A stretch of DNA of 64,000 bases from Lytechinus pictus (Eukaryota). Made by a program: the position numbers and the translations under genes. Where the stretch lies: NCBI RefSeq assembly GCF_037042905.1, contig NC_087250.1, positions 8,744,001-8,808,000 of the forward strand, written 5' to 3'. Below the pieces are notes generated by a model. That model made no database searches, was not told the DNA's origin, and saw nothing but the letters and a program-made list of their open reading frames with translations. This document shows, piece by piece, positions 6,518 through 53,905 of this stretch; the stretch's first letter is position 1, and each line of letters begins with the position of its first letter.

Positions 6518-6769
6518 TTTTGTTTAAAATTTCACCTATCTGATTCTTAGAATTTTTAATCACATTTCTGCGCTCAGTCATCCACTTATCTCACTTATTG
6601 ATCTTTGTCCAATACACACACTCCTATTCCTTCCATAAATGAGTTTACTTGAGCGAGAAAAAAAATGAAACACATGAAAACAACATATACATTTGTATTT
6701 ATTAATGTAATTTAATATGTATTAATGAATACAAATAAATAGATAAACACACACACACATATATATCTT

Positions 6770-25328: not shown

Positions 25329-25339
25329 TTCATCTTACC

Positions 25340-35276: not shown

Positions 35277-36261
35277 ATAACATAATTAACTCTGACATGT
35301 TCGGTAAGGTAATCTCGTTCAAAACTATGGAACGCCAAGTGTGTACGTGCTACGACACTACAATCCTCCTATCTTGCGGATTGAACTCAACAGCACAAAT
35401 ATGTGATTTGCTCTTTACACAAGAGACATTTTTAACGTTGTGCAAGTACTGTTTGGTTAGCTTATTAACTTGTTAGCTACTGAGCCATTGCATGCAAGAC
35501 GCATATAAGTAAACCAGAATATAAACAAAAACAGAAATTGATTGTTTGATAAATCTGTATCACTTGACTATATGATAAGATGTGTCACTTGATGAGAATA
35601 ATGCTATCATTTGCATACAAGAAATTAATAATACATGTAGTGAGTTGTTTGTCATTGTTTCTCTTAATGATGCTACATGTATGTATTTGAAACTTCATAC
35701 TTTCATATACTGTGTGCTTCAATTTTACTTTAGAAACAAGCTGCGTGGATTGTGTGAACACAAAATAGTTTTGTATCAAACATACTAACTACAAATGTCA
35801 AAACAAACTTTGTTATTCATTTCAAACTAAGCTAACAACAAACTATCTGACCTGTTTTAAACTATACTACAAATCAAATTTTTTGCTTATTTAAATTTAA
35901 TGCAGAGAGACTTTTCTCTTAAAGTATACACCAAATAATGTCTTTTGACTCTTTTCCTTGACACTAAAGCAAATAACACTGTTAGCACATGACTAAATTC
36001 CAAAATAATCATAAAGAGACTTTCTTCTGTTAGTTTGTTCTACTCTGGTATCATGTTCATATACATATAGATATTACTTCCGTTAGCACAAAACACAATA
36101 TACCAACAATCTTATGTGAGCGTGTGTGTCTACTATTCAATTTCCAACTATTTCTGGCTATCTAGATACATGTTTCATCTTGCATATAATACAAATGATG
36201 CACATACATAATCTTTTTTTCTTTTTTTTTGCAACAAATAAGGCATACTGTATGCATATGT

Positions 36262-36395
36262 GGAGCGTTGTGGCCCAGTGGATTAGTCTCCGGACTTTGA
36301 AACAGAGGGTCGTGGGTTCGAATCCCAGCCATGGCGTAATTTACTTCAGCAAGAAATTTATCCACATTGTGCTGCACTCAACCCAGGTGAGGTGA
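36262..36395 (+). mobile_element. tRNA-derived SINE, 5' half
   Basis: A box tggcccagtgg, B box ggttcgaatcc, core gtgctgcactcaacccaggtg; ends abruptly at cccttgtaaaaaa. Confidence 0.85.
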
Positions 36396-36407
36396 CCCTT
36401 GTAAAAA

Positions 36408-37075
36408 AGTACTGCGGTAGTACTGCGGTACAAGTACCGCAGTACTACCGCAGTACAAGTACTGCGGTAGTACTCGTGGTAAATTGGTCGGTACTACTGC
36501 GGTAGTACCGCGGTAGTACCGCAGTACCTGTACTGCGGTAGTACCGCGGTACCTATACTGCGGTAGTACTGCAGTAGTACCGCAGTACAGGTACTGCGGT
36601 AGTACCGCAGTACCTGTACTGCGGTAGTACCGCGGTACCTATACTGCGGTAGTACCGCAGTAGTACTGCAGTAGTACCGCGGTACCTATACTGCGGTAGT
36701 ACCGCAGTACAGGTACTGCGGTAGTACCGCGGTACCTGTACTGCGGTAGTACCGCGGTACCTGTACTGCGGTAGTACCGCGGTACCTATACTGCGGTAGT
36801 ACCGCAGTAGTACTGCCGTAGTACCGCAGTACCTGTACTGCGGTAGTACCGCGGTACCTATACTGCGGTAGTACCGCAGTACAGGTACTGCGGTAGTACC
36901 GCGGTACCTGTACTGCGGTAGTACCGCGGTACCTGTACTGCGGTAGTACCGCGGTACCTATACTGCGGTACTACCGCAGTAGTACCGCTGTACCTGTAAA
37001 CCTGTACTGCGATAGTACTGCGATAGTACCGTGGTACCTGTACCATGGTACTACCCTGGTGCTACTGCGGTACTT
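36408..37075. repeat. GC-rich quasi-palindromic array (gtactgcggtagtaccgc), probable subterminal repeat of a CACTA/EnSpm-like end
   Basis: Directly follows CCCTTGTAAAAAA at 36396. Confidence 0.8.
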
Positions 37076-37171
37076 GCACACCTTTATGAAAACGATCACA
37101 ATTTCATTTAGCTTAATCACAGTAATAAGAAAATTACAAAAGTATTAATATTATAAAAAGTTTATTTTGAG

Positions 37172-37203
<32 letters not shown>

Positions 37204-38000
37204 GTTTTAACATCTGTAATCATGTACTTTCTTACTAACATGACTAAGTTTTGGCACACACAATGGCTAAATGGTTGGTTGAGGTAACGGGATTCCTGAA
37301 GTTTTAGCACACACAATGGCTGAATGGTTGGTTGAAGTAAAGGCAAGTTAAAGTTATATGCTTAATATTTTACATGATAAAAACTGTAGTGAAAATCATC
37401 TGTACTCGAGTTGCAACAAAAACAAAGATATCTAACATCTCTACTTTAGTACTTTTATAACAACTATGACTAACGAGTTTTAGGTTCACGCACAATGTTT
37501 GTGGTGAAGGCAAGTTGAGATTACGCTTCATATAAAAAGTCTATACAATTTCCAAGAACTGTTGAGTTGTAAAACACTGTCCACGTACTTGTATCAAAGT
37601 TGCAACAAAAACATAAATCTTCCAATCTTTGACAAGGTAAGTAAATAGAAGTAAAACATGATTATTTAAAACCATTAAAACTAAACACATGCATCATATA
37701 TGTAGAAATTGCAGCAGATAATCTATCAATAATATCTCAAAACTGTAGTTAAAAACATCTCTACTGAGTTGCAACAAAAACATGTAGATATCTAACATCT
37801 CTACTTTAGTACTTTTTTATAACTACTATGACTAACGAGTTTTAGGTTCGAGCACAATGTTTATGGTAAAGGCAAGTTGAGATTACGCTTCATATAAAGT
37901 CTATAAAATTTTCAAGAACTGTTGAGTTGTAAAACACGTACTTGTATCCAAGTTGGAACAAAAACATACATCAATCAAGTTCCTTCCAATCTTTGACAAG

Positions 38001-38450
38001 TAACACGAATAATACAGTCAATTCAATCTTTATTTCCAAATAAAGATTGAATTGAGCGGAGAATTAAACTGACCATAAATATATATTATAGGTAATAAAG
38101 AGCAAAGAAAATGGGGTTCCATCGGGATTCGAACCCGAGACCTCCGGATTGCTAGCCCGGTGCTCTACCGACTGAGCTATGGACGGCCCTAGTCGATAAT
38201 TCGTCCCATAAACCCCTTAACTTTCAATGCTCGTATGGTCAGAAGCTATAGAAACCTGACATAAACCCAAAGGATAGAATCAACTTTATAGGCCTATGCG
38301 AGGGATCACGGCGAAGTGATGCAGCTTTTTGAATATATAATTAACACGAATAATACAGTCAATTCAATCTTTATTTCCAAATAAAGATTGAATTGAGTGG
38401 AGAATTAAACTGAACATAAATATATATTATAGGTAATGAAGAGCAAAGAA
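38001..38450 (-). mobile_element. Short element with ~110-bp terminal direct repeats, central tRNA-like sequence and 13-bp TSD
   Basis: Repeats 38001-38111 and 38342-38452; TSD aatctttgacaag; empty site at ~37624. Confidence 0.8.
38113..38186 (-). pseudogene. tRNA-Ala(AGC)-like sequence
   Basis: D arm gctcagtcggtagagc, anticodon arm ccggg-ctAGCaa-tccgg, T arm tcgggttcgaatcccga; acceptor stem only partly paired. Confidence 0.65.
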
Positions 38451-39837
38451 AATCTTTGACAAGGTAAGTAAATAGAAGTAAAATATGATTATTTAAAATA
38501 ATGAATCATAAATAAATAAATGAATCATATATGTAGAAATTGTAGCAGATAATCTATCAATAATATCTCAAAACTGTAGTTAAAAACATCTGTACTGAGT
38601 TGCAACAAAAACATGAAGATATCTAACATCTCTACTTTAGTACTTTTTTATAACTACTACAGATAATCTATCAATAATATAACAATATTTGTTACAGCAC
38701 TTTATCAATGTGACCTTACACAACAAATAAGTAGGGTAAATATATTGTGTACACATATAGAAGACAATGCCTTTAAAATGTTACATGAGCATACTTTGTT
38801 ATTTGGCACAAGGCAAAGTTTTTAAAGGACGAGAGGAAATTTGCCACTTAAATAAATGGCGTCAAACGCATACACATTATCAAAGTTATTTTTCAGCACA
38901 CAATGAATACATTTCAGCAATATCTTTGGCAAATAGAGTACGGAACAATCAGGAACATGAAATAATTTGGTATATTCCCGTCATTCAAAATCATAACAAA
39001 AGCAATTTTAATTCCATTCGCTTTTGTTTAAAGACCAGATTAACAATACCAAATGTCTCAAATTTTAATGCATGTTTGAGGCAATTTAGGTTCCCCATAT
39101 AAATTTTGATGTCTTCCAAGAGACGTAGTTTCTTGTTAGTCTGATTTGATTCCATTCTTCAAGGTGAATTTGGGCTTTTATCCGTAGATCATATATAAAT
39201 GCCATTTTTTGCACAAAAAAATCTCAAATTGTTTCCTTATCAGATCAAAATTTACTCAACAAGAAAGTTCTTGACACTTATTTGTTTAGAAGGGTGCCAA
39301 CAAAGAACACTGATTGATGCGTGCGCACTGTCATTTGATATCCACATGCCAAAACATAAAATTTAATATATTAGTACCAGCTGGACGGAAAACACAATAC
39401 ATGCCTAGAATTGATGTGATGGCCCATGAAGAGCTTTTTATCAAAATAGCTTTAGAAACAGGTGAAATGTTAAAGATCATCAAGCGTTGGGATGCTACGC
39501 TACAGATCGCCATTTTGAACTAGGCTAGTTTGTGCGCAAGATGGCACTGTGTGTATGATAAACGATGCAGGAGCACCTTTAATATATCAGATAAGGATAA
39601 TTCTGGCCCCTATTAAAACATTATTATTATTTTTTTTAATGTTGGTCTGTAGCAAGCATTATAGCAATGTAGCAATGCCTGTGGTCTAAAACATATTCCA
39701 ATCAACCAAAAAAATACACAGGAGCGACGGGCGATTCAGAAGTGCCAGAAACGTACCAAACATGGCATACTCGGATAGGTCGCATCATGATGATCATACT
39801 AAATTATATTTGGAACAGAATATGCATGTGCTTGTTA

Positions 39838-39995
39838 AGTCCTCTGATGCTGGCAGTGTTCGGCAGGCCCATGTTACTGACCTCGTCACTGAATGGTGCG
39901 AAGAATGTGGCAGGTCGCGCAAATTTGCCTCCTCTGGACAGTGAACAGGGGATAATTAGTAAGTAACAAGACTTAGCTCATTATTAATTAATTAG
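39838..39995 (+). repeat. Inverted, diverged copy of BEN-gene exon 7 and its splice donor
   Basis: LMLAVFGRPMLLTSSLNGAKNVAGRA; reverse complement of ~41385-41527. Confidence 0.9.
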
Positions 39996-40854
39996 TCATC
40001 TTGACAAAGTGCTTCATTCGGTCTCATCTTGTGGTTCTTGGTTTAATTCTTTGGCTTGGTTTTCTTTGGCTTGGTTCTCTTTCGGTTGAGATCTACGTTT
40101 GGCCAACTTAATTTCGTTGCCAACTTTGTTCCGCATAACGATGCGGATTTCCGATGATGACACTCCTGGGAACTTTGACTTGACATGACCTGCAAAGGAA
40201 CACGTAAAAAAAAAAAAAAAAAAGATTATAGTCAAGGTAGGTAAATGAGAATCATAGCACGACTTGGGTGCCAATGGCCACTTGAAATTTTATTTGGCCA
40301 CTAGAAATAAGAAAGAAGCTCTGTATTAGCCACAAACTTGTTAGGTTCTACAACACACAAGTCTATGATCAAATATATTTAATGTGTTATGTTCACCTGT
40401 AAATAAAAAGCTAAGCACTAGCCCTGCATAGATTGGGCAGTGATATCTTTTTATAATAAGTAGGCTGATACGGGCTATTCCAGAGTCAAAGACATTACAA
40501 ATATGAACTAGATGGATCTTCGATTGCGAACTATAAAAAATCCTGCTTCCGCTATCGCACAATTTAAAGGATGTAACTTGTACTTTGAATACAAAGCTAT
40601 GAACAAGTTTATACACTACAAGTTTACAAACATTTGGCTCATCAAATGTTCAGCTATTTCATAAAATGTGTACCATCAGGATCCATTACATAATTTGCCC
40701 AAATATGTAATGTCCATGATGGCACACATTTTCCACTATAAACGAACAATGAATGAAGAAAATATTATCAAATCAAAATTGCTGGTAGCTTTGTAATCTG
40801 AGTAAAAATTACATAATGGACGGGTACATCTGTCAGAAGTGATCATGATATTGG

Positions 40855-41208
40855 GAAACCCTGTTATAACGAGCTCGCTTATAATGAAGTACAGGTAACC
40901 CTGTTTTAACAAGGTGGTCGGGACCATCAAATTTACCTCGTTATATTAAGCGGTACTTCGTTATAAACGGCAGATTTAATAATACATATAAAACACAGAT
41001 TTACGATCGGGACCAAAGGATTCCCCTCGTTATAAGCGAGTTCGTTATAACGGGGTTTCCCTGTACCGCTTATAACGAGGAGAATCCTTTGGTCCCAATT
41101 GTAAATGTGTTTCTATATGTGTTATTGAATCTGCCGTTTATAACGAGATACCGCTTATGACAAGGTAAAATCGATGGTCCCAAACACCTCGTTATAAGGG
41201 GTTTCATG
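40855..41208. mobile_element. Tc1/mariner(Tigger)-like MITE remnants with an internal inversion
   Basis: Repeated cgttataacg motifs; aaaccctgttataacgag / cgttataa.ggggtttc. Confidence 0.55.
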
Positions 41209-43138
41209 TGCACATGTACAAATTTTAAAATTTTAAAATCCAACCACTTTGTTAGCGGAGGGTTAATGATTAAAATGAAACATTAATGGCATTGCATAAT
41301 ATTATCTGCACCCACCAAATTTGTAAAGCTGACAAATTTAAACACAAAAACCAAAATTGTACATCTTGACAAATGTTTAATCAATAATGAGCTAAGTCTT
41401 GTTACTTACTAATTATCCCCTGAAGCTTGTCACTGTCCAGAGGTGGCTTTGCGCGACCTGCCACATTCTTCGCACCAGTCAGTGACGAGGTCAGTAGGGT
41501 AGGCCTGCCGAACACCGCCAGCATCAAATCGCAGGTGTACTTGCGAAAATCACCAGCGTTGCACCTGTCGAGGACGTTTCGACTAAGAGAGACCTTCGAT
41601 CCAAGGGCAATCTGTTGGGACTTAAGAAAATACAACATGGTTAGTGATTATATGCTGATATACCCTACTGACTTAATCATGGCCAACATAAATGAGGGTA
41701 AATTTACTGTAACATATTTAATGCAATGGTTGAAATTAACAAAGATTTATACAAACCATTGTTCACATCTATGAAATACCATTTGTAAACTGATGGATAA
41801 AATAGATGGATCTTTTGACTGTGCGCAGGAAGGGGAGGACGGGGGTTGGATTCCACCCCCTCACTTTTTGCACGATAATTCTGCAACGCACGCAGGTATT
41901 GCCGCGCGACTTCAGGAGTTTTTTCATCGAAGTCTTCCGCATCGTATGAGACCAAATTTCGCAACGACCATGTGTATACCCTTTTGTAAGCGATTGCTAG
42001 CCCGGAAATCGCTAAATTTTGTGATTTGTGTACAAATCCTATGGAAACTGATTTTTTTTTCCAATAAGAGAAAAAAGCTTCATTAATTTTTTTTTCAATC
42101 AAAACTATCTTTTGATTTTGGGCTAAAAATTGTTGACTGATGGTAAATAATTTTTCCATCGAAAAAACAAACAATAAAAAATAAAATAAAATAAAAAAAA
42201 AACATAAGAAATTCCAAAAACAAAGAAATACACCAGGAATTATTTGGCTGTCGCAATTTTGAAAACATGTTATAAGTTATAAAATATGATGATGCACAAA
42301 TTGAGCATATTGTCAATTATATTTCGAGATTTATAGACAAAAGGGATTTCGCATAATTTTGCATAATTAACAATACTGATTTTTTCAAAAAAATATTACA
42401 ATCTTGTAGATTATGTCGCAGGTTATGGTGCCAACTTTCGTGGCGGCGGCGCGTTCTGCGGCCGAGATTTCTTGTGGGGGGGGGGGTGCGGGCTATAGAC
42501 TAACCTGGCCTGGTGAGGACTAAATACTGTTAACAATATTGACAGTACACACTTAATGCAACAAATAAATGTTTCTGAAATATTTTGCCGATTTGCAAGC
42601 TCGAACCATCATATAATTAGAAATTGTTATCTTGTATACGAGCAGTAATCAATGTTAATCATGGTTATGTACAAATTTTCTTTTTGAATCTGGGCCACTT
42701 AGTCGAACTAAAATATTTATACATGAAGTAATTACCTGTGGTCGTGCTGATGATGGCGAGGATTGGGTGGAGGACTGGGTGGAGGAACGAGCGGGCGAGG
42801 AACGAGCGGGCGAGGATGATGTAGATGACCCTCCTGATGGACAGTGCATCTCTTCATGATCAGCCTGCCAATGAAAACGAAAATCCATATTTCATACCAT
42901 CAAATATTTACCAAGATTTTACTGCAAAGTAGGTCAAGCAATCAAAGGAAACAAAAGCAAACAGAAAATAGCAAATAGCATAAGAGATTTGCATGCATGT
43001 TTCCTCCTCTAAAAAATGACTTCTAAATAGTTACTAATTCCCACTGATTCAGTTTTCATAGACCTATACAATATAACGATCCATCCAGAGTAATTCATCA
43101 TAAACACAAATGCACGCTGGCCTGGAATCGCTTTGCCT

Positions 43139-43598
43139 AAAGGAGTGATCACACAGTCATGACTATACCCACAAATGCTGTACACATTTGCCTGCGGTAT
43201 TAACCTGTACGATCGTAGTTCGCCATGTATCGACCATACCTACATATGCTCAATGCATACTGTATGCATATTTGCGAATGCCACAAGAATGCAGTGAGAC
43301 AGCAGTAAATATGCGATACTCTTCCATCAAGAAAGAAGAACCAGTACGAGGGTTACACACTTGGTACAATTGCAGTAAGAATGTCATAGGTATTGTCCAC
43401 CATTCTTACTGCAATCATACTGAGTTCGCAAGACATCGTACTGGTTCTTCTCCATTCTTGATGGAAGTGTTATCGGATTCTTACTGCTTTCTCATGGCAT
43501 TGGCAAATATGTGAACAGTAGACATAGAGCACTAGTTCGTACCACATGCATACAGCAAATTCGTGGGTATAGTCATGTCCAGTGTGACCACCCCTTAA
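43139..43598. mobile_element. Palindromic MITE
   Basis: catgactatacccac / gtgggtatagtcatg near the ends; agaaccagtacga / tcgtactggttct internally. Confidence 0.65.
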
Positions 43599-44580
43599 GA
43601 TTCACAACATACCTTGAGTCTCGACATCTCCTCCATATCCACTATGAACCCTTTAAAGGTTTAGATGAATTTAGGCACTCCTTGAACAAAAACAAAATAA
43701 CATAGATATTTATTCATACCACTAAAAATTGAACTATTTAAAACTATGAAGGTATTATATGAAGAAAAATTTGCCAAACCGAAGCTGAATACTCTAGAAT
43801 GGAGAAGAGAGCTGGAGATTTAATACAAACATAAGATCATGACACAGATAAAAAAAAGTAGAAAACTTCTTTGAGAGATTGGGATACCTCAGAAAAAGAA
43901 GCCACTCCATGAATTTCACAAAGTTCAGAAGGCTTATACAGAGTTGTTAACATATGGAACAAGTCCCCTCATTCCAACTTTTTTTTTTACCAACTATTCA
44001 ACATGAATTATTTAAATGGGCTCAAAAGGGCACCATAAACTAAAGGTTTGTTTAACGAATATGTGAGGTATATGACTATGAGGTATTGTCCAAGCATTTG
44101 AATACTAAATAATGGGAGGAAATACTGTACCTTGCAAAAACAACAGCTGTTGCTGTATCTTTTCCCTAACTGCCTTCTCCTTAGTCAGCTTCACCTGCAG
44201 ATCCTCAGTCTCTCTCCTTGATTTCTCCAACTGCTTTTTCAGGTCAATTATCTCACCACTTGTTCCACTTCCCGTTGCCGTACGTCCATTTGATTTTTTC
44301 TGTCAGAATGATAACAAATCGGACACTAGTTAAAAAGTATGGTTTATGAATGTGAACCAGCGCAATTACCTCGTCATAACAGGATTTAGTTAATTTTGAC
44401 CAATAACAAGGTTTCACTGTGAATTAGGATTTGTAAGATTTTACATGGCAATTAGCATACTTATCTAACTAAATATATTGACTTTGTACATTTATAATGT
44501 TTAATTACTTAGCTAAATATGTTCAATGAAAATTTTAAAGGATTCATTCAAATGTGTTAAAATTGTAGCAATCAATAGGA

Positions 44581-47283
44581 GGGCAAGTCCAAGATAAGGT
44601 CCCCTGAGAAGACAAAATTTCATCTTTGGTCAACATTGAAATGTTTGGTGTCATTTTGAAGCATGATAGTTGAAATTTAAAATTCTGTGAAGGAATAAAT
44701 TGTATCATGCAAATTTATGCAAATTTCAGTGACTTAATTTGCATAAATTAGAAATGCTGTGTTACGTATGGGACAAATATAAAAAATCATTATTATTTAA
44801 AGAGGAAGATCAGTAGTGGGCGAGAGGGCGTTGGAACCATTTAACTATTTTGGGAGCTGGAATGAAAATAACTAAAAATACTGAAGTAAGATCATTAATT
44901 TTAAACAAATGTCACGTTTATTTGATCAAAATCGGTTCAGAAATGGCTGAAATATCAAAGAAAACAGATATTTACTTTTGTACGTGGCCCACGTACAAAA
45001 GTCGATAACGGCCGTGTGTATTGATATTTGAATTTTACGAACGAATTTTCGCTCTTCGATGGATACAAGATCAACCTTTTTTCATTCATAAAATCACACA
45101 GAAGTAAAATTAGGTGTCCAAAATTCCACGATAGTTCTTTAATGATGTTTTCTTTATATAAATACCCATTAACCTGATTTCAAATACATTTCGAGTTCCT
45201 AAACCACTACTGATCTACACCTTTAAAGGAACACAATTGAAATTTTATTAATATGTGGACCTAAGAGGTTCATCATCTATTTTAATTTGGTATGAAAATT
45301 TATGCACGACGCAATTAATTATGCAAATTAGGTCGCGTCCTATCAGCGATTGTCCCATACGTAACAAATTGAGGACATTTTTTTAGTTTATTTCTGAATT
45401 TGTAAAAGTTATTGCAGTGCTATTCTGGGAAGTTCTAATTTATTGTGTTAAGAAGTTAGATACTGGTTAGAAAGAAAAGAAATAACAATTAGACCCATTT
45501 TTAATTAGCAAATGAAATAATGTTACGTATGTGACAATGTGTTACGTATGAGACATCCCCATATATATTGCATGCGAATGTACATGCAGCAGGCATCAAT
45601 AGTTTCTCAGTACATGAATGGTCAATGAGCCTGCAGCATGCATCCCAATCTTGCAGCCACTGTCTTGAGACAATACTAGACTGCTGCATTCTAAATGGGG
45701 AGAGGTAGGTAAAATAAATCAGCATGAAATGTGTAAAATATATTAATTTAGGTAGAGCATAATCCATACAGAAGTCATCACTTCATTTGAGAACAATCTG
45801 AATATGAAGGAGCACATTTGTTCTTCAAGAAATGCAACAACATTAAGCCATCCAGAAGAACCTGATTCAGATTGAAAGAATGCTATAATTTGATTAAAAA
45901 ATACCCTCTTATTTATTAATTTGTAAGAAAGGTGAAAATATATGACAATCAGACAGTTGCCATTACTGTCAGCCTCGGAATCATGAGGAAGAAAACAAGT
46001 CTTGCAAAACAAAGTTCAGCTTTGCTAATGAACCAGAGACAGATTTTTTTTTTTTACCTCCACCAGTTACTACCAATCAAGAAATTCACATCTTTACAGA
46101 GGAAAGTGTAGCTACTGAGTAAGATAAATACAGTGAAGAGGGATAACAAAAAAAAAAAAAAGAACAAATTTTACAAAAATTATGTGATGATGCAGAAGAT
46201 GCCCATAAAAAATAGCCTTTCAGAAAAGTTTTGTTAGAAACTGTGACAACATCAAGAATTTTAACTGTGTATTATTTCATATTGTGGCCCCCCTGTTCAA
46301 GATTAAATCTACAGGTAGTAAAGATGTATTTGATAAAAGCAAGGGTGTGTATGCTTTCATTTTAGAAATCATGCAACTGTTTCATGGCATTTCATATTTA
46401 GGGAAAATACACTAATATAGACCAAGAACGGTGCACGGTGGTTCATTATATTCGCACAGAATGATCATACTTGTTTGTAGATCTATAGCTGGTATTACTC
46501 AAGTGGTTCTTCTTGAACAATAGAAAAGGCATTTTCACACAGTTTAATTATACAACTTAAAAGCCCAGTGAATGTATAAAAATTGCCCCCACCCCCAAAT
46601 AAAAAAAACAAAAAAATATCATCAAAACTTCTATAATAATTAGCACTAGTAAATACATGTTCAAATCAGTTAGTGGTTGATTAGCAGCATGCCCGTATGA
46701 AACAAAATAGATAAAAATGAAAAATATAATCAAATATGATTATGGTTGTAAATTTTATTGGAATTTCATTTTCCTGACAATTTGCAAACAAATCTGATTA
46801 ATTACAGCTTATTTCACTTTGGTAACCAGACCAAAAATCCAATATACGCTTTCCACACACTAAACGAATAGGGGAAAAAATGTCCCATACGTAACACGTC
46901 ATATCTGTCTTTAATCAGAGCCTGTACTTAGAGCTTTCTGCCTTTTTACATGAAATTTATCCTTGGTAAACTTGAGTGCTGTGACTTTTATCACAGTGAG
47001 TTTCAAGGTTTTAAATGAAATACTTTCTGAGCAATTTCAACTTGAAAAAGAAATTAAAAAAATCTCTTTTCTTCTGGTCCCATACGTAACAGCACACATT
47101 TTCTCTTCTAAAATCTCATTGTCAAGGTCATTTCTCACAATTTTTTACATGAATACACTTCTCCTGGATATCAATCACCATGGTTAAATTCAATGCAATC
47201 AAAGTTCCTTTACACCATTTTTCTGGAAATAAAAGCCTCTGAAATGTCCCATACGTAACACGCGCGTTATCTTGGACTTGCCC
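44581..47283. mobile_element. Non-autonomous TIR element, Sola2-like
   Basis: AGGA|GGGCAAGTCCAAGATAA ... TTATCTTGGACTTGCCC|AGGA (4-bp TSD, GRG termini); dispersed tcccatacgtaaca motifs. Confidence 0.75.
44801..45222. mobile_element. Kolobok-type MITE nested in the Sola2-like element
   Basis: TTAA|agaggaagatcagtagtgg ... ccactactgatctacacct|TTAA. Confidence 0.75.
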
Positions 47284-48460
47284 AGGACTGAGCATTTAGT
47301 TAATTGTCATATAACAGTGATTTTAGGACACTTTGCATATGTGAACAAACTTATAGCTTACTATGCATCAACAGGTACCTTAGATTAATCACGCTTGCAA
47401 GTTGCAATTCCAAGGTGTTTAAATAGCTGCACATACCGTTTCATTGGCACCAAACATTTGCTTCCTGAGATCCCTGGCCATCTCATTGCACTGTGAAATT
47501 TTTGATTTTGATTTCTGAAAAAGGAAAAGATAGAAGTAAAAACAATTTTATGATTTTTTTTAAATAGTACTGTTTAGCATCTTGGGAATTGTCTAGGCAC
47601 ACAAGTTACACAACCATTGGCGATTGCAGTTACTTCATGAAGAAAAATTTAGCAATATGTAGACGCTTAGAACCATCTGTATTAAGCACCCAAGAAATTT
47701 AAAAAAAGAGCAAAAACATGTTATTCTGTTTCTACAAATTGAAAACAAATATCCCTCCTTATACATTTTAACCAGAACATTTGTTTATAAATATGATTGA
47801 GCTGCATAATATTGAAACAAAGCCAACAATGTTATTTCTGTAAACTGTAAAGGATTTATTGACTATGTTTGTTGATGAGTTTGTAAATGATAACTGGATA
47901 GAAAGATTTTGTTAATCTGTCAGTCATCAAAAATTACTTCCAGTGTTGGGATATCATATGACACATGTACACACACCTTTGTTTCTTTTGGTTGAGGCTC
48001 CTCATCATCCGTCTCCAACTCCGAAGATGAATACATGTATGTGCGTGTTGGTTTCTTCTTTCTCTTCCCTCTCCCAGTTTCCTTATCAGTCTCCATTGAT
48101 TGCCCGTCACACATCTTGTTCCTTTTTCTGATGAGATTATCCTTGGATCCTTTAAACAATTTTGAAACAAATTAAAAAATTAACTATACAATTTCAAACA
48201 AACTCACTTGGAGCTTTCCCACTCCTCATTTGGTTTGGTTTATGGAAATAATTAATACAAAAATCACTTTTCAAATGTCTCCATAATCATGATAATTGCT
48301 TTAACATATCAGGGAGACCCCGAAAAATTTTTTTAACAGGCTAGGGCACTTCTAAAAAATAATCATGCACATAATCATGTTTATGTCAGATTGTCAATTT
48401 CTAGTACCTACCTCATCATTCATGCAGCTCGTCAGCGCCACACATACAGACATAACTCTG

Positions 48461-48736
48461 GGGCGATCCGAATCCACTCAAAAGTGAACAAAAAACTAAA
48501 AAAGTTCACATTTGTGCAGTTGGCCACGGGAGGGAAGTCTCGGAAGCCATTAAATGACTGAATTTGTGCCGAATGGAGGGGGAAATCCGATTCTTTTATG
48601 GAGGCACAGCAAAGCTAGCATATTGCGTCATATTTTGGTGGTAATTAAGTATTGCATGATTTTATTATTTTAAAGCTGAATTCAGCTGCACAAATGTGAA
48701 CTTTTTTTGTTCACTTTTGAGTGGATTCGGATCGCC
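48461..48736. mobile_element. MITE with ~60-bp TIRs
   Basis: ggcgatccgaatccactcaaaagtgaacaaaaaa / ttttttgttcacttttgagtggattcggatcgcc. Confidence 0.75.
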
Positions 48737-49149
48737 ACGCGCAGCGTGGCAATCCTCGGAGTTAACAGACATGTAACTCCGGGGATCGCTAGCGCGACAG
48801 CGCTAGTGATCCGGAGCCAAAAATGTCTAATGGGAGTAATGCGCAGCGAAAAACTGCTTTAAAATAATTTAAAAAAAAAAAAAAAAAAAAATCTGCTAGC
48901 GATGCCCGGAGTTAAATAACAGACATGTTGATAATGCATGTGAGGCTTGGTCTTGGAAATTTACTAGTACTACGTGATCATGTGGTCAGTGCCACTGTTT
49001 ACATCGCACTCACTGCAATATACCAACATCATGGCAATGTACGAACATCAGAACATAAATCACAGACAATGTTTATAATATAGAAGAGTAGCTAGTAGAA
49101 CATTCAAATACAAAGTCAAATTCAGTTAACAAAAATAACGGTAAAGCCT

Positions 49150-49702
49150 AAAGGTCTACAATTGCACACCCCCCTGGCATTTCAAAAGTGTATGGCCGAT
49201 TGAGATGAAATTTGCACAAATTGATGCTCTAATAATGATTAATACATTACGATATCGGCATCGACATCCAATGCGATCGCAATGGAGAGTAGTTGTTGCC
49301 TCCGATCGTACAACCAATTGTGATCAATCCCAAACAATAATAACGCTGATCATAACATGTGATAAACTTTTTTCCATTATGAATATAAATTATAAGGGAA
49401 AAAATAACAGAAAAAAATGTAAAAAGTCTTGTTAATGTTATCACACTCACAGCGTTATAATTGTTTGTGATCCATCACAATTGGTTGTACGATCGGAGGC
49501 AACAACTACTCTCCATCGGCATCGCAATCGCAGCCATTGCCATGTTGACACCGATAAGGCGATATCGTGAGTTCCCGCCTTCGAATTTCTTTGAAATTTT
49601 TGTCACATATCAATCATTATTAGTTAGAGCATCAATTTGTGCAAATTTCAATCGGCCAAATATTTGTTGAAATGCCAGGGGGGTGTGCAATTGTAGACCT
49701 TT
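49150..49702. mobile_element. Long palindromic MITE
   Basis: aaaggtctacaattgcacacccccctggcatttcaa and its reverse complement at 49667-49702. Confidence 0.85.
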
Positions 49703-49807
49703 TTTTACCAAAATAACAATTTGAATCAATATAGATCTAATTAATAGTACATTGACTGTAATACTGGTAGTGGTACAAGTCAATGGACCATGTCAATTGA
49801 CTGTTAA

Positions 49808-49978
49808 CCCATCAGTGCCTAAGGCTAAGCCCCGCATATTTGTGGGATGGTAGTGATATTTTAACGAATAATGGCCAACAAAATTTACGACAAATACGAG
49901 TTGCCAATTTGTAGAGGAAAACAATGATCAATTTGGCCTTTAGCCTTTAGGCTTTAAATAGCTCTCGTCCTTGATGGG
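49808..49978. mobile_element. piggyBac-like MITE
   Basis: TTAA|CCCATCA ... TGATGGG|TTAA. Confidence 0.55.
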
Positions 49979-52101
49979 TTAATGAGTCACAAGTAGATCT
50001 ACTAACATACACAAGGTGTTTTACACATATGACAAGAATATATAGGATTAGGAATGGTGGCAGTGAGTGAGCATGTCAACAATAATGTTACATTCCCATG
50101 GCCATGCACACGTTTGTCTTCGGCTTCGCAGACGCAGTTTCTTTTTGGAAGGTTTAGATCTATTTGAAAGTCGATTTGAACTTGAAGAAAAATATGTAGG
50201 CCTACGTTAAATTCTTTAGACTTAAATATTGTATGACATCAGATGTGTTCATTATGAGATTGTGCAGCCGATCATATAATTTTCAATTTGATTTTATGCA
50301 GAGAATATGTATTTTTGACATTATTCGTTGACATGTACGTCATTGTAAATATGTATGACCACAATTATCGTATAGTAATGCATGCATGATGCATGGGACT
50401 GAGTTGCATGGGTACACCGTACGGACTTACTATTTACAGCCAACACTGTTGCTCGATACTTCTCCGTTTTGCTGCCACTGACCCACATAACTTCAACAGC
50501 TTGATCGACATAGCTTTCAGGATCCACATCCTTGTCCGTGTCTAATATCCAAGAAAATGGTCCAATTTCGACGCTGTCATCGCTTTCAAATTCAAAAAGA
50601 CAGAAGAACTCGTCTGAAGCTGGTGGCGGCATAGTGAGGCTGAGATCTTGAATGAAAAATAGACGATCGCGCGCGCCTTTCTACGATCCAATAAAAAAGG
50701 TGCACGCGCGTCACGTGATTTTTCGAGATACGCGCATGCGTCCTTCAGGTGATCACGATTGTCAAACAATCGCGTACATATTACATCGCATGATTTTACT
50801 GTTCAATGTCCATATTGCATGTAAAGATTAATTAGCCTATATAAATTTCCCGGGATAATTATCATCCTTTTATTGTGAGTATAAACGATAATTGATTTAC
50901 AGGGACCGCGGGGTATCGCGGAACGGGGTGGGGGGGGGGGACTGAGGGTTGCAGCCCCCGCCCCCCCCCCCTCCCCCATAATTATTCCAGGATAAATATT
51001 CTCCAACGACATTGTTACAAAGATATATCTACTAAATGTTTCCGTTCAAACCTGACCACTGTTAATGAGGCAATTCACAAGCTTGAATCATGCGTTAGAA
51101 CGATCGTGAATTGTGGAGGTTTTCAATCTCATGAAATCGTTTGTTTGTTTGTTTTTCACAGTATACATTTTTTATAAAAAATGTTCAATTATTTCAATTC
51201 AATTATGGGCGTCGATCCCGATCCATTCATCAGGGGATGATCGGGGCACCACCCCTTTCCCTGATGAATACTGGGTATTACGTAAGTATCGACGCTCATA
51301 TTCCGGCCGGGGCTCATAATAGCATTTAATTGCTCCGATTCATAATTTTGTGAGAACCTATACTGAAAAGTAGTTGAAAGTTTTTTCAATTCATATTCCT
51401 TAAGTGTTGGGTAGAAGAGAAATACGAAACATATAGTGGGTCCTAATTGTTATATAGGCCTATCAATTTCGAAGTAAATTTATATCATTTCCGAACCGGC
51501 ATCTAACATTGTAAATTGGTAAGCGGCAATGCCGACAAGAAAAGACAAACTTACTCAGTCAGGGGGCTTGGGGGCGCCCCCCCCAAAAAAAAAAAATAAA
51601 AAAATAAAAAAAATAAAATCATGGTTTTTTCCCAATTCCATAACAGTGATTGAAAAAAATACTATTTCTTCACACATGAAAACTCAGATTTTACTTTATG
51701 TCAAGTCACATAATTCAAAGCAAAACATTATATAAAAACACATTTAGGGGGGTTTAAACCCCCTTGGGCTGCCGAAAATACGCTACATACGCTGCTTCAC
51801 AGCTTGGGCCGCAAAAAAAAAAAGCACAAAAACGCAAAGTTTCGCCACTTCACGGCTCATTTCGTCAAAACCCCCTTGGTAAAATATTTAGATCCGCCCC
51901 CCCCCCCCAGCCTCTTTAGGGTTAATATTTGCAACCAACAAAAAAACCCAGTAATAATTGAAATAAAAGAGAAAACTCAATAAGGTGCTATGTATTTTGT
52001 GTTGCATTGTGTTGTGTATCCTAATTCTTTTTTTTTTTTTTTTTTATCAAACTTGGAATGGGATGAAATGCACTGCTGTTACATAATATATATGTATATA
52101 C

Positions 52102-53588
52102 CATAGGCTTAGGAACCGGGGGGGGGGGGGGGGGGGGCTCGGATATCATTGAGCCCCCCCCCCCCCCCAATATTTTTGGCGGGGCTAATATAATAATATC
52201 ATTGAGCCTCCAATTTTTGGTCACAGATCCTGGATCCTCCTCTGTTAAGCCCATGTTAAAATGATTATTTCAGATGATTTTTAAATGTGGGATTAGAATG
52301 CAGTGATTTCAGGTCACTTTATCGAGAGAGAAAAACTTCAGCTTGCGCTACGCGCTCCCATGATTTCATTGCCTTTTGCAGTGGCGGCGCCACAGGGGGG
52401 GGGGGGCCCACACACCTCATATTCTGGCAGCGAGGTGCCCGAATGCCCTCATAATTTTGTAATTTCATGCCTGTCATATAAAATTTCGGCATTTTACACA
52501 GCAAAAATCTCAAAATTGTTGGTCAAAAAAGCCTAAAAGGCCAAAAAATTGTGCTTGCTCGCAAATTAAAACAGGGAAGTTGTTAACAAAAATATTGAGC
52601 CCCCTAGATAGGTGTGCCTTTACCCCCATCTTCAAACACACGCACAGATTATATTCTGGCAGCAAGGTGCCCGAATGCCCTCACAAATTGGTAATTTAAT
52701 GCGCGTCCAATAAAATTTTGGCATTTTAAACACAAAAAAAAAAAATCTCAATTTTTTTGCTCGCTCGCTTCGCTCGCTCGCAAATTTAAACCAGGAAATT
52801 GATATCTGGCAAAATTGTTCACCCCCCCCTAGATAAAGTGTGCCCGTATGCCCATCCTCTAATTTATTGTCTCAACCCCCCCCCCCCCCTAAAACCATGA
52901 CATTGCACAAACACAGATGCACTGCTCATAATCTGGCAACAAGGTGCCCAAGTGCCCTCATAATTTTGTCATTTCATGTCCATATTTAAAAAATCGGCTT
53001 TTCACAGCAAAAACCTCAAAATTTTTGCTCGCTCGCTTCGCTCGCTCGCAAAATAAAACCGGGACGTTGATATTCGGACAAAAAGGTTGAGCCCACTTGA
53101 TAAAGTGTGCCCTTACGCCCATTTTTTTATTGATATCTAAAGCCTAACACCTCCGCTTCCATTTTACCCATGGAACATTTTAGTAAAGAATAATACACAA
53201 CTATTATAGTGAAGAGACATAGAATTTCAGAATATCATGCAATCGTGCACTGGCTGGTTGATAATTACAAACACACATCAAAGGACCTCGAAACTGTATA
53301 ATCATAATGATATATTTTGCATTTTCATGTTATTAACGGTTAAAATAATTGCGTGTGTTTTTCTAAAAATGGGGGTAGAGCAAAGAGAGAAGAAAAAGAA
53401 AGGCTTAACAATTTACGCAAAAGGACACTCTAAAAAGGCGCAGAAACAGAAAAAAATGACTGTCTAAAATGCTGACAAGGGGGGGGGGGGGGGAGTCGGG
53501 GGGAAAAAAATCTTCAAACGGCCGGTCAAAAACAAAAGATCTAGCCCCCCCCCCCTCCCCCAATCCTAAAAATCTTCCTAAGCCTATG
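52102..53588. mobile_element. TIR element (hAT-like) with ~270-bp internal repeats
   Basis: CATAGGCTTAGGAA ... TTCCTAAGCCTATG; tgctcgctcgcttcgctcgc repeats. Confidence 0.75.
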
Positions 53589-53754
53589 TATATATATAAA
53601 TATATATAGGCCTATAGACCCTATAGGCTATACATAAATATACATAATATATATATGTAATTATGTAGGCCTATATGAAGCTGTCAAAGTGATATTATGT
53701 GAAGAATGGAGGAATCCTGCACTAAAAAGTGGAGGAGCTTAGTGCCACACTACA

Positions 53755-53905
53755 CCTGGCAGGAATTTATTCCTTGAAATGCCCCAGCGCTGTAAAAGGC
53801 TGCGGGGCTAAAGCCAGGGTAATAATATCCAAGTCCTTTGGAAGCGCGTAGAGACGTTATTTATAATGTGTTATGCGCTATACAAGAACTGTCTATTATT
53901 ATTAT
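53755..53905 (+). mobile_element. tRNA-SINE 3' half with (tat)n tail
   Basis: cctggcaggaatttattcc..gcgctatacaagaactgtctattattatt; continues the 36262-36395 head as judged from the 2645-2840 copy. Confidence 0.8.

What the first reader, a model, noticed from the sequence alone, without database searches (positions are those of the whole stretch)
36396..53754. Putative 17-kb DNA element carrying only a spliced BEN-domain gene and a GC-rich terminal repeat array
The insert begins CCCTTGTAAAAAA, followed by ~670 bp of gtactgcggtagtacc motifs resembling CACTA/EnSpm ends with subterminal binding arrays. Its only coding cargo is an 8-exon coiled-coil/BEN gene. BEN domains bind DNA, often GC-rich or palindromic sites. 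Inference: the BEN protein is a TnpA-like accessory factor that binds this array. No matching right TIR and no transposase were seen.
Basis: partly seen in the sequence, partly recalled or inferred. Interest (0 to 1): 0.7.

Follow-up and report, generated by a model that had tools for sequence, protein, structure and literature searches.

The report
Broken copy of BEN-gene DNA transposon
The 17-kb insert is a damaged, one-ended copy of a very young 15-kb cut-and-paste transposon family of the sea urchin Lytechinus pictus, which carries a BEN-domain DNA-binding gene but no transposase and has arrays of a palindromic motif under both of its ends.

Summary
A tRNA-derived SINE is split at 36395/53754 by 17,358 bp that start with CCCTTGTAAAAAAG plus a roughly 670-bp array and carry an 8-exon, minus-strand BEN gene.

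The insert is not one element:
- 36396-50871 is the left 14.5 kb of a roughly 15.4-kb TIR transposon family. The genome has 21 copies, 18 of them with both ends.
- The family has perfect 21-bp TIRs, a 2-bp TSD in 11 of 13 pairs examined, and motif arrays at both ends. Four copies differ by 0.07-0.18%.
- 50872-53753 is non-family DNA. Its last 654 bp have one other copy, a rearranged copy on contig C10 from which the window copy most likely derives by an aberrant one-ended event. The window copy has no right TIR and no TSD, and 6 bp of the target are lost.

The window's gene has a premature stop (E214*).

The protein has a Tudor-like domain, a coiled coil and a BEN domain of the BEND6/Insv type. 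No transposase was found in the element, and nothing else in the assembly shares its TIR.

CACTA membership is not supported. BEN binding to the arrays is plausible but untested, and only 8 of 21 copies keep the exon for the first half of the BEN domain.

The parts
36258..36395 (+). Left half of the interrupted tRNA-derived SINE (target of the insertion)
   Evidence: All 39 scored matches other than the window's own end at or 2 bases short of this base; alignment to intact copies.
36396..36416 (+). Left terminal inverted repeat (21 bp, CCCTTGTAAAAAAGTACTGCG) of the transposon family
   Evidence: 40 exact genome hits forming 18 inverted pairs plus 4 unpaired ends; 0 hits for the reversed control. 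Other copies stop matching the window exactly here.
36396..37075 (.). Left subterminal array of the motif GTACYRCRGTA, in both orientations; GTACCGCGGTAC is a perfect palindrome
   Evidence: TRF arrays. 57 motif hits in the window insert, the listed ones within 36896-37073, and 0 in the rest of the window. In the canonical C9 copy 81 hits, all in the first 717 and last 430 bp, against 0.045 expected from shuffles.
37380..38660 (.). Internal repeats of about 340 bp, holding a tRNA-Ala(AGC)-like gene at 38112-38185 (-)
   Evidence: Self-matches in BLAST; ARAGORN and Rfam tRNA, 55.8 bits.
39845..39991 (+). Inverted partial copy of exon 7 (88% identity), lying just 3' of the gene's stop codon
40014..40189 (-). 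Exon 8: second half of the BEN domain and stop codon (TGA at 40014-40016)
   Evidence: Acceptor and frame read from sequence; agrees with NCBI model P0147.
41410..41620 (-). Exon 7: first half of the BEN domain. The NCBI acceptor is used here; an alternative acceptor lies at 41611
   Evidence: Pfam BEN E 2.1e-5; sequence; models. Present in only 8 of 21 family copies.
42736..42864 (-). Exon 6: serine-rich linker
   Evidence: Acceptor from RNA joint 42863/43612; donor from sequence.
43613..43680 (-). Exon 5, with the premature stop codon of this copy at 43661-43663 (codon 214; A at 43663 where C10, C9 and C1 have C)
   Evidence: RNA joints; translation; four-copy comparison; 6 of 6 X9 reads show C.
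44131..44299 (-). Exon 4: start of the coiled coil
   Evidence: RNA joints; GT-AG checked.
47437..47514 (-). Exon 3
   Evidence: RNA joints; GT-AG checked.
47977..48149 (-). Exon 2: basic and acidic stretch
   Evidence: RNA joints; GT-AG checked.
50431..50632 (-). Coding part of exon 1 (ATG at 50630-50632): Tudor-like beta-barrel domain
   Evidence: AlphaFold2 model and Foldseek.
36396..50871 (+). Transposon-family part of the insert (left end up to an internal break point). The last roughly 860 bp of the canonical element, including the right array and right TIR, are absent
   Evidence: Collinear at 98.5-99.6% with full copies on C9 and C1, up to 50875 (C9) and 50770 (C1) in BLAST and to 50871 by eye against C9.
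50872..53384 (+). Segment X: not family sequence. The full-length C9 and C1 copies read different sequence here. Matched in inverted order on contig C10 (30055775-30058391); inferred to be C10 host DNA
   Evidence: The genome-wide copy number of 50872-53099 was not searched.
53383..53753 (+). Segment B: copy of the 370 bp that flank the left terminus of the C10 copy (C10:30073090-30073459). Bases 53383-53384 (AA) fit both X and B
53754..53905 (+). Right half of the interrupted SINE

Best explanation
SHOWN
- The insert is a defective member of a young, non-autonomous TIR DNA transposon family of Lytechinus pictus.
- Intact members are about 14-15.7 kb. They have perfect 21-bp TIRs (CCCTTGTAAAAAAGTACTGCG) and make 2-bp target duplications.
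- They carry arrays of a roughly 11-12-bp, partly palindromic GTAC(C/T)GCGGTAC-type motif under both ends.
- They encode one spliced gene for a 401-aa protein with a Tudor-like domain, a coiled coil and a BEN domain. No transposase was found.
- The window copy holds only the left 14.5 kb of the element, followed by 2.9 kb of foreign DNA. It has a premature stop in the gene.

INFERRED (about 0.65)
- A full element on contig C10 was split by a roughly 25-kb inversion, which put its left half next to host DNA (X).
- A break at the now unpaired left terminus, most likely made by the family's transposase, freed or exposed the two sides.
- The left half with 2.5 kb of X, and the 370 bp (B) from the other side of the cut, were then joined or copied into a break in a SINE on C6.
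- This gives a precise terminus-to-target joint on one side and repair-type joints elsewhere: a 2-nt overlap, 6 bp of target lost, no TSD.

INFERRED (about 0.4)
- The BEN protein dimerises through its coiled coil and binds the palindromic subterminal motifs.
- There it would act as an end-binding accessory or regulatory factor for a transposase supplied in trans from an unidentified source.
For: Family:
- The 21-mer TIR has 40 exact hits, forming 18 inverted pairs plus 4 unpaired ends, and 0 in the control.
- 11 of 13 pairs examined have identical 2-bp flanks (CA, AC, TA, CC, TA, TA, CT, AG, TG, AT, TG); chance is 1 in 16 each.
- Window 38200-40000 is present at 21 loci at 99-100%, and 48200-50870 at the same 21.
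- The right-end region is at 19 loci plus two pieces on C10.
- The motif is confined to both ends: 81 hits against 0.045 expected.
- Substitutions among four copies are 0.07-0.18% over 13.6 kb.

No transposase:
- 1 of 118 ORFs has a Pfam hit, and it is BEN.
- TIR search with up to 3 mismatches gives 10 extra hits against 9 for the reversed control, with no pairs. The 2-mismatch hit has no motifs beside it.

Gene and protein:
- Splice joints are seen on the minus strand.
- NCBI models of 401 aa exist.
- The AlphaFold2 model has pLDDT 77, above 90 in both domains.
- Foldseek finds Insv BEN 4ix7 (E 1.4e-5) and BEND6 BEN 7yun (TM 0.83 on the target), then Bsg25A, NACC1 and BANP.
- Homodimer prediction scores 0.37 against 0.00 for the best of 3 controls. 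The runs agree in at least 59% of contacts and the partner pLDDT is at least 62. The mark was reached by 21 of 30 solved homodimers and 0 of 23 solved single chains. The interface is an in-register coiled coil at 164-209.
- BEND6 and BANP BEN domains bind a CGCG-core palindromic 12-mer (PMC10206803, passages).

Window copy:
- Matches the C9 and C1 copies from 36396 on, to 50875 (C9) and 50770 (C1); by eye it follows C9 to 50871 and then diverges.
- Window 53100-53753 has only one other copy, on C10; 50978-53384 also matches there.
- On C10, 36396-53384 is inverted relative to 53383-53753, and both pieces abut at the element's left terminus, C10:30073089|30073090.
- C10 also holds the missing right part in the opposite orientation 10 kb away. 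It starts at the base after the break, or 50 bp before it if those 50 bp are element sequence.
- E214* is present in the window only; C10 and C9 are intact.
Against: - No transposase source was identified, so 'mobilised in trans' is a deduction from TIRs, TSDs and copy identity.
- 13 of 21 copies lack exon 7. In X1 contigs depth is 6.7 in the bin that holds most of exon 7, against 332-520 for the contigs that carry the exon 1-6 joints. So most transcripts may encode a BEN-less protein, which weakens any need for the BEN domain.
- DNA binding by this BEN domain was not tested, and BEND6 binds the CGCG oligonucleotide only weakly (Kd about 33-39 uM).
- The inversion model leaves no TSD for the reconstructed C10 element (TT against AT).
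- The 50 bp ahead of the C10 right part are otherwise seen only in the C1 copy, so their status as host or element DNA is open.
- No substitution is shared by window and C10 against C9 and C1.
- X shows about 9-10 clean substitutions in 2.5 kb (about 0.4%) against 0.14% in the transposon part. This needs gene conversion or chance to explain.
- The copy number of 50872-53099 was not searched genome-wide.
Confidence: 0.7

Rival explanations
1. The BEN gene is a passenger. A host BEN-solo gene, introns included, was captured by a non-autonomous transposon. The arrays are binding sites of the unknown transposase itself, and the BEN protein plays no part in transposition.
For: - 13 of 21 copies have lost exon 7 yet belong to the same near-identical family.
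- The C1 copy has a frameshift in exon 8 and the window copy a stop codon.
- The gene has its own promoter, introns and alternative forms like a host gene.
- The whole protein aligns with vertebrate BEND6 at 26% over residues 10-380, E 1.5e-10.
Against: - The nearest relatives in the sister species L. variegatus are only 48% identical. They occur there as two roughly 98% identical genes on different contigs with the same exon 7/8 intron position, which suggests a long-standing multi-copy (possibly transposon-borne) lineage rather than a recent capture.
- In L. pictus the best matches to that protein are the transposon copies themselves; only three weak paralogous hits lie elsewhere, all on C8.
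- The array unit is a CGCG-core palindrome, of the type that BEN domains are known to bind.
Confidence: 0.35
2. The window copy arose without any transposase. An ordinary segmental duplication or templated break repair copied two adjacent C10 pieces into a break in the SINE, and the palindromic array itself was the fragile site that set the shared break point.
For: - No TSD, 6 bp of target lost, a 2-nt overlap at the A/B joint, and only two copies of the last 654 bp of X+B.
- The array is built of inverted 12-mers that could stall forks or extrude hairpins.
Against: - The shared break lies exactly at the family's terminal base, between ...CAAGGG and the flank. It is not inside or at a variable distance from the array.
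- This same base is joined cleanly to the SINE in the window. A structure-induced break would not be expected to respect the transposase cleavage site to the base.
Confidence: 0.25
3. The direction is the reverse. The window arrangement (left end ... X-B contiguous) is ancestral. The C10 copy derives from it, and segment A was inverted there by an intramolecular attack of the left end on the X|B site, which would duplicate 2 bp.
For: The 2-nt AA is present once in the window and on both sides of the inverted segment on C10, as a 2-bp TSD of this family would be.
Against: - C10, not C6, holds the missing right part of the element nearby, in the orientation expected from an inversion that created the element|X joint.
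- The window site is plainly an insertion into a SINE.
- The unit would need a functional right end at ...CACACTAC, which has no likeness to the TIR.
Confidence: 0.1
4. One reading: a 17-kb CACTA/EnSpm-like element whose limits are 36396 and 53754, with the BEN protein as its TnpA.
For: Subterminal arrays and a DNA-binding cargo gene.
Against: - The termini are not CACTA and the TSD is 2 bp.
- Full members end about 860 bp beyond 50871 with a right TIR that this copy lacks.
- 50872-53753 is not part of the family.
Confidence: 0.03
5. Assembly artefact: the joints are chimeric joins among 21 near-identical repeats.
For: Near-identical 15-kb repeats are hard to assemble. No DNA reads were laid across the window's joints.
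Against: The two SINE halves fit each other to within 6 bp across the insert, and the element|X joint occurs in two contigs. A chimeric join would not produce this.
Confidence: 0.03

Closest known systems
En/Spm (CACTA) with TnpA and its subterminal 12-bp repeats (recalled knowledge; CMC features as stated in PMC12730594, passages)
   Same: TIR element with dense arrays of a short motif in both orientations under both ends. A non-transposase DNA-binding protein encoded by the element is a candidate to bind them. Short TSD; the CMCT range is 2-5 bp.
   Different: Termini are CCCTTG...CAAGGG, not CA...TG or CACTA. No DDE transposase is in the element. The candidate binder is a BEN domain, unrelated to TnpA. 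Binding is not shown.
PIF/Harbinger-ISL2EU elements with a second, Myb-like DNA-binding ORF (recalled; TSDs of 0, 2 or 3 bp per PMC12730594)
   Same: A two-component logic (transposase plus a separate end-binding protein) would fit, and relatives make 2-bp TSDs.
   Different: Only the putative accessory gene is present. No DDE_Tnp_4-type ORF was found in the element. Superfamily membership could not be tested without a transposase.
BEN-solo transcription factors: Drosophila Insensitive and Elba1/2, vertebrate BEND5/BEND6 (PMC4281564 abstract in listing; PMC10206803 passages)
   Same: A single C-terminal BEN domain preceded by a coiled coil. Best structural matches are Insv, BEND6 and Bsg25A BEN domains bound to DNA. 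Full-length sequence likeness to caecilian BEND6.
   Different: Borne on a multi-copy transposon. Has an N-terminal Tudor-like barrel. Its targets are unknown.
Fractured or one-ended elements and aberrant (alternative) transposition of maize Ac/Ds (recalled knowledge)
   Same: A copy with a single functional end, next to an inversion that separated the two ends. A derived copy has one joint exactly at the terminus, while the other joints look like repair.
   Different: Different family and organism. The mechanism here is reconstructed from two loci only.
Gene-carrying non-autonomous DNA transposons (Pack-MULEs, CACTA gene capture; recalled)
   Same: A large non-autonomous TIR element with host-like, intron-containing cargo that is transcribed.
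   Different: The cargo is a complete gene kept open in at least some copies (C9, C10). Relatives in the sister species are also multi-copy.

Membership tests
Class II TIR (cut-and-paste) DNA transposon, non-autonomous | Terminal inverted repeats at both ends | tested here: met
   Family: 18 inverted pairs of an exact 21-mer. The window copy itself has only the left one.
Class II TIR (cut-and-paste) DNA transposon, non-autonomous | Target site duplication of fixed length | tested here: met
   2 bp in 11 of 13 pairs examined; 5 further pairs not examined. The window copy has none; 6 bp of its target are lost.
Class II TIR (cut-and-paste) DNA transposon, non-autonomous | Several dispersed copies that end at the same bases | tested here: met
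   21 loci on 16 contigs.
Class II TIR (cut-and-paste) DNA transposon, non-autonomous | No transposase gene of its own | tested here: met
   Pfam on 118 ORFs of 48 aa or more: BEN only. Little transcription of the other strand. Short or very diverged exons could have been missed.
CACTA / EnSpm (CMC) | Termini 5'-CACTA...TAGTG-3' (CA..TG in most CMCT lineages, PMC12730594) | tested here: not met
   Termini are CCCTTG...CAAGGG.
CACTA / EnSpm (CMC) | TSD of 3 bp (2-5 bp in CMCT) | tested here: inconclusive
   2 bp: within the wider CMCT range, not the CACTA value.
CACTA / EnSpm (CMC) | DDE transposase with C(2)C and H(3-4)H motifs | tested here: not met
   None in the element. A partner elsewhere could not be tied to it.
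CACTA / EnSpm (CMC) | Subterminal repeat arrays | tested here: met
PIF/Harbinger-ISL2EU (PHIS) | TSD of 3 bp (TWA), or 0 or 2 bp in relatives | tested here: inconclusive
   2 bp of any sequence: compatible with ISL2EU-like relatives only.
PIF/Harbinger-ISL2EU (PHIS) | DDE_Tnp_4-type transposase, often with a Myb-like second ORF | tested here: not met
   Neither is in the element.
piggyBac | TTAA target duplication (recalled) | tested here: not met
   0 of 13 flanks are TTAA. The CCCT start of the TIR resembles piggyBac termini only from recall.
BEN-solo proteins (Insv / BEND5 / BEND6 type) | One BEN domain, C-terminal | tested here: met
   Pfam PF10523, E 2.9e-8. Foldseek hits to Insv, BEND6, Bsg25A, NACC1 and BANP BEN domains.
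BEN-solo proteins (Insv / BEND5 / BEND6 type) | Coiled coil and self-association ahead of the BEN domain | tested here: met
   Helix 164-234. Homodimer prediction 0.37 against 0.00 for the best control. This is model support only.
BEN-solo proteins (Insv / BEND5 / BEND6 type) | Sequence-specific binding to (often palindromic) DNA | not testable with these tools
   The protein-DNA complex could not be modelled or assayed here.
tRNA-derived SINE (the flanks) | tRNA-like head, high copy number, A/T-rich simple tail | tested here: met
   835 first-look candidates; alignment. ARAGORN does not call the head as a tRNA.

The most novel reading that the evidence does not exclude
A BEN-solo protein (Tudor-like domain, coiled coil, BEN domain) is a dedicated, transposon-encoded end-binding factor. 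A dimer would read the palindromic GTACCGCGGTAC arrays under both termini and organise or regulate transposition by a transposase that is encoded elsewhere or is of an unrecognised kind. This would be a new class of transposon accessory protein. It would raise the possibility that animal BEN-solo transcription factors and such transposon genes share a history of capture or domestication.
Probability: 0.3. Interest if true: 0.75.

Novelty: new variant of a known kind. Interest (0 to 1): 0.55.

Why it matters
- The family looks active very recently: 21 copies differ by 0.07-0.18%, the TIRs are exact and the TSDs clean. Lytechinus pictus is a laboratory sea urchin, so excision, binding and knock-out tests are feasible.
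- It pairs a BEN-solo DNA-binding gene with end arrays of a CGCG-core palindrome and has no recognisable transposase. Two searches of the held literature found no description of a BEN gene as transposon cargo.
- If the protein binds the arrays, BEN joins THAP, BED, Myb-like and TnpA domains as transposon end-binders, and the origin of BEN-solo factors becomes testable.
- The window copy and its C10 donor form a rare, readable record of an aberrant one-ended event that moved host DNA between chromosomes.
- For annotation: at least 11 'uncharacterized protein' loci of L. pictus returned by the tools are named copies of this gene and should be flagged as transposon genes.

Tried and rejected
- A 16.7-kb DNA query of the genome was not scored, 'too many letters'.
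So the three nested insertions of the 43-kb C8 copy, the 25.9-kb C16 and 18.5-kb C15 copies, and the two paralogous hits at C8:8.01 Mb were not read. A transposase hidden there is not excluded.
- RNA holders: no listed holder is on record as RNA. Raw RNA runs of the same species label were laid instead. 11 joints were not shown, so the exon 6-7 and 7-8 joints rest on sequence and NCBI models.
- The joint 50844 to 42024 ('goes back') in one X1 contig is explained: other copies have right-end sequence there that is 75% like 42011-42331. I do not read it as a circle or back-splice.
- Circular-intermediate model for the window copy: rejected, because it predicts B in the opposite orientation (reasoning).
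- Transposition of A+B, or of A alone, with a cryptic second end: rejected, because the sequences at 53753 and at C10:30055775 have no likeness to the TIR.
- Helitron reading: no TC...CTRR ends and no A|T target (the Helitron features are recalled).
- The 2-mismatch TIR hit on C3 is a chance match.
- A search for repeats spanning the C10 left boundary found nothing that spans it, so it gives no evidence on direction.
- Earlier findings of the scan: nothing by place or by sequence.
- Protein Atlas on residues 1-90: only unnamed clusters.
- Literature on L. pictus transposons: nothing relevant in the listing.
- Apparent 0.8-1.6% divergence of X and B between the two loci is mostly misalignment at homopolymer runs. 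B has no clean substitution and X has about 9-10.

Full report
WHAT IS AT THE COORDINATES

The window is G000:C6:8744001-8808000 of an 812-Mb eukaryotic assembly. Protein names returned by the tools identify it as Lytechinus pictus.

Bases 36258-36395 are the first part of a tRNA-derived SINE. The search gave 835 first-look candidates, of which 40 were scored; all 39 matches other than the window's own end at or 2 bases short of window 36395. Intact copies go on ATGGGT-ACCTGGCAGGAATTTATT..., and the window resumes exactly so at 53754. RNA reads from other SINE copies bridge 36395 and 53754 with ATGGGT between: 1088, 850 and 466 reads in three runs (table 5c).

The insert is therefore 36396-53753, 17,358 bp. 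It replaces 6 target bases and has no target duplication. It begins CCCTTGTAAAAAAG and runs into a tandem array at 36407-37042, with a 25-bp unit in 16.9 copies at 88% matches.

THE END AT 36396 IS A REAL TRANSPOSON TERMINUS

- A 23-nt piece of the array occurs 315 times in the genome, against 0 for the reversed control. The places listed fall in clusters at 13 loci.
- Two such loci match the window at 91-99% and stop matching exactly at 36396.
- Window 38200-40000 is found at 21 loci at 99-100% identity; one of them is split by an insertion. Window 48200-50870 is at the same 21.
- Full copies on C9 (15,381 bp) and C1 (15,688 bp) show what the window lacks. About 860 bp beyond the equivalent of 50871 they end in a second array and the exact inverted repeat of the left end.
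- The 21-mer CCCTTGTAAAAAAGTACTGCG has 40 exact hits and 0 in the control. These form 18 inverted pairs, 13.1-16.1 kb apart in 15 cases and 18.5, 25.9 and 43.4 kb in three.
- Four ends are unpaired: the window, C3:65936836, and two on C10. The C3 copy has its right-end region, but only up to 14 bp short of the terminus.
- In 11 of the 13 pairs whose flanks I could read, the two flanking dinucleotides are identical (CA, AC, TA, CC, TA, TA, CT, AG, TG, AT, TG). Two pairs do not match and five were not examined.
- The motif GTACYRCRGTA or its complement occurs 81 times in the C9 copy, all within the first 717 and last 430 bp, against 0.045 expected from shuffles. It does not occur in the window outside the insert. 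GTACCGCGGTAC is a perfect 12-bp palindrome.
- Four copies compared over 13.6 kb differ by 0.07-0.18% in substitutions, in a star-like pattern.

This is a young TIR DNA transposon family with 2-bp TSDs and subterminal arrays at both ends.

THE CARGO

Stranded RNA reads (two of three raw runs) and contigs of a fourth run give five GT-AG introns on the minus strand. The last two junctions follow from the sequence and agree with NCBI gene models.

The coding exons are:
- exon 1: 50431-50632
- exon 2: 47977-48149
- exon 3: 47437-47514
- exon 4: 44131-44299
- exon 5: 43613-43680
- exon 6: 42736-42864
- exon 7: 41410-41620
- exon 8: 40014-40189

The full product is 401 aa (P0147).
- Pfam finds one BEN domain (E 2.9e-8).
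- An AlphaFold2 model (26-sequence alignment, mean pLDDT 77) shows a beta-barrel at residues 6-85, a long helix at 164-234 and the BEN fold at 276-392.
- Foldseek matches the C-terminal domain to DNA-bound BEN domains: Insv (4ix7, E 1.4e-5), BEND6 (7yun, TM 0.83 on the target, 31% identity), Bsg25A, NACC1 and BANP.
- The N-terminal barrel matches Tudor domains weakly (E 0.1-0.3).
- A homodimer prediction of residues 160-395 scored 0.37 against 0.00 for the best of three controls. The runs agree in at least 59% of contacts and the partner pLDDT is at least 62. The mark was reached by 21 of 30 solved homodimers and 0 of 23 solved single chains. The interface is an in-register parallel coiled coil at 164-209. 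This is model support, not proof.

Of 118 ORFs of 48 aa or more on both strands of 37050-53760, only the BEN exon has a Pfam hit. The opposite strand is hardly transcribed.

The TIR with up to 3 mismatches finds only 10 further sites, against 9 for the reversed control, and none are paired. The one 2-mismatch site has no motifs beside it. No partner family can be named from the ends.

VARIATION AMONG COPIES

- Exon 7, the first half of the BEN domain, is detected in only 8 of 21 copies: C1, C3b, C5, the window, C9a, C10, C16 and C21.
- Twelve others are about 1.26 kb shorter between the equivalents of 40000 and 44126, and C15 is irregular (coordinates).
- In the contigs of run X1, depth is 6.7 in the bin that holds most of exon 7, against 332-520 for the contigs that carry the exon 1-6 joints.
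- NCBI lists an exon-7-less, frameshifted isoform (P0004).
- Of four copies read in full, C9 and C10 have open 401-codon frames. C1 has a 15-nt deletion in exon 6 and a 47-nt deletion in exon 8.
- The window has a stop at codon 214 (43661-43663) and P265S.
- All 6 RNA reads over 43663 carry the other allele, so nothing shows that the window copy is expressed.

WHY THIS COPY HAS ONE END

The window follows the canonical C9 copy up to 50871 and then reads different sequence.

The last 654 bp of the insert have only one other copy, on C10. A direct comparison shows the following arrangement on C10:
- window 36396-53384 (A) lies at C10:30055775-30073089, inverted;
- window 53383-53753 (B) follows directly at 30073090-30073459, in forward orientation;
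- two bases, AA, fit either piece.

So on C10 the element's left terminus abuts B. In the window it abuts the SINE, and B sits at the far end.

C10 also holds the missing right part of the element in forward orientation, 10 kb further on: 30083380-30083841 and 30090259-30090493, with 6.4 kb between. It starts at the very base that follows the break in the canonical sequence. It is preceded by 50 bp that are otherwise seen only in the C1 copy.

The simplest reading is that one element on C10 was split by an inversion of about 25 kb. That makes segment X (50872-53384) C10 host DNA and the element|X joint a C10 product, so the window copy is the derived one.

Both pieces of the window copy end at the same point of the donor, the cleavage site of the left terminus. 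One of these ends is joined cleanly to the SINE. The other joints show a 2-nt overlap or none, and 6 bp of the target are lost.

I infer that a break at the unpaired left end, most likely made by the transposase, supplied two fragments (or two run-off templates). These were captured in a break on C6. This step is inference.

Points against this reconstruction:
- the reconstructed C10 element has no TSD (TT against AT);
- no substitution is shared by window and C10 alone;
- X carries about 9-10 clean substitutions in 2.5 kb, against 0.14% in the transposon part, while B has none.

A circular intermediate, a cryptic second end, and a Helitron reading were considered and rejected (see Tried and rejected).

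HOW IT PROBABLY WORKS

Shown: the ends, TSDs, arrays, copy number and youth of the family, a spliced and transcribed gene for a BEN-solo-type protein, and no transposase in the element.

Inferred: mobilisation in trans by an unidentified transposase.

Inferred with about 0.4 probability: the protein dimerises and binds the palindromic units.
- BEND6 and BANP BEN domains bind a CGCG-core palindromic 12-mer, weakly in the case of BEND6 (PMC10206803, passages).
- Other BEN factors bind palindromes such as ACATGT (abstract in the listing).

The loss of exon 7 in most copies shows that the domain is not needed in cis. It may mean that the BEN form is supplied by a few copies, that the BEN-less form has its own role, or that the gene is a passenger.

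COMPARISON AND RELATIVES

The anatomy recalls En/Spm with TnpA, and the two-gene PIF/Harbinger elements. Membership in CACTA fails on the termini and the transposase. The 2-bp TSD fits only the wide CMCT range (2-5 bp) or ISL2EU-like relatives of Harbinger (PMC12730594, passages). Without a transposase the superfamily stays open.

The protein belongs with the BEN-solo factors. The whole protein aligns with caecilian BEND6 at 26% identity over residues 10-380, E 1.5e-10.

The nearest relatives outside L. pictus are two L. variegatus proteins:
- they are about 98% alike in the aligned parts and lie on different contigs;
- they are 48% identical to P0147 over the full length;
- they have the same exon 7/8 intron position.

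In L. pictus the best matches to that protein are the transposon copies themselves, and only three weak paralogous hits lie elsewhere, all on C8. This hints at a related multi-copy lineage in the sister species, which I could not examine.

Two literature searches for BEN domains as transposon cargo found nothing pertinent. One was BEN domain + transposase + terminal inverted repeats: 2 papers, both on Tn3. The other was BEN domain + DNA transposon: 6 papers, of which 4 were listed and one was read in passages.

VERDICT

The feature in the window is a dead, one-ended derivative. The family behind it is a new variant of a known kind and is worth a bench test.

Noticed in passing
window 24804-25334 (-): A second, unrelated BEN-domain ORF (177 aa stop to stop; Pfam BEN E 1.8e-4 over the whole profile) lies 11 kb from the insert, next to a stretch with GC skew -0.58.
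   Followed up: partly
window 38112-38185 (-): A tRNA-Ala(AGC)-like gene (Rfam 55.8 bits) sits inside the transposon, within internal repeats of about 340 bp and on the gene's strand, in what looks like a long 3' region covered at high depth by X1 contigs.
   Followed up: no
window 39845-39991 (+) and 41377-41526 (-): An inverted 147-bp copy of exon 7 (88% identity) lies just beyond the stop codon. A transcript that holds both could fold into a double-stranded stem.
   Followed up: no
window 49296-49507: A cluster of T>C differences in RNA reads and contigs (A>G on the sense strand) falls in a 67% self-complementary part of intron 1. All four DNA copies checked have T. This could be A-to-I editing, or variants of unread copies.
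   Followed up: partly
G000:C8:29711307-29754682: One family copy is 43.4 kb long, with matching TG flanks, because of three nested insertions of about 12.1, 6.6 and 10.5 kb. Their content was not read.
   Followed up: no
L036/L037 (C1:5514360-5514410) and L025 (C10:30083330-30083379): The same 50 bp (CAATTATCCCG...TTTTTT) occur only in the C1 copy, where they replace 101 bp, and at the C10 junction ahead of the right part. This links the histories of the two copies.
   Followed up: partly
window 6739-10335 (+): Long repetitive ORFs (699 and 450 aa, 429-bp periodicity) lie in a region with GC skew of -0.25 to -0.37. They have only weak DUF7624 hits below the cut-off.
   Followed up: no
window 58166-59419 and 32108-32473: Tandem repeats: 125 bp x 10 at 97% matches, and 185 bp x 2.
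   Followed up: no
window 1855-2403 (-): An ORF with a PHD finger (E 8.8e-8).
   Followed up: no
G000:C8:8011580-8014310 and C8:17981641-17981874: Weak paralogous hits (37-47% identity) to the N-terminal and BEN parts of the transposon protein. These may be host or older family members; they were not read.
   Followed up: no
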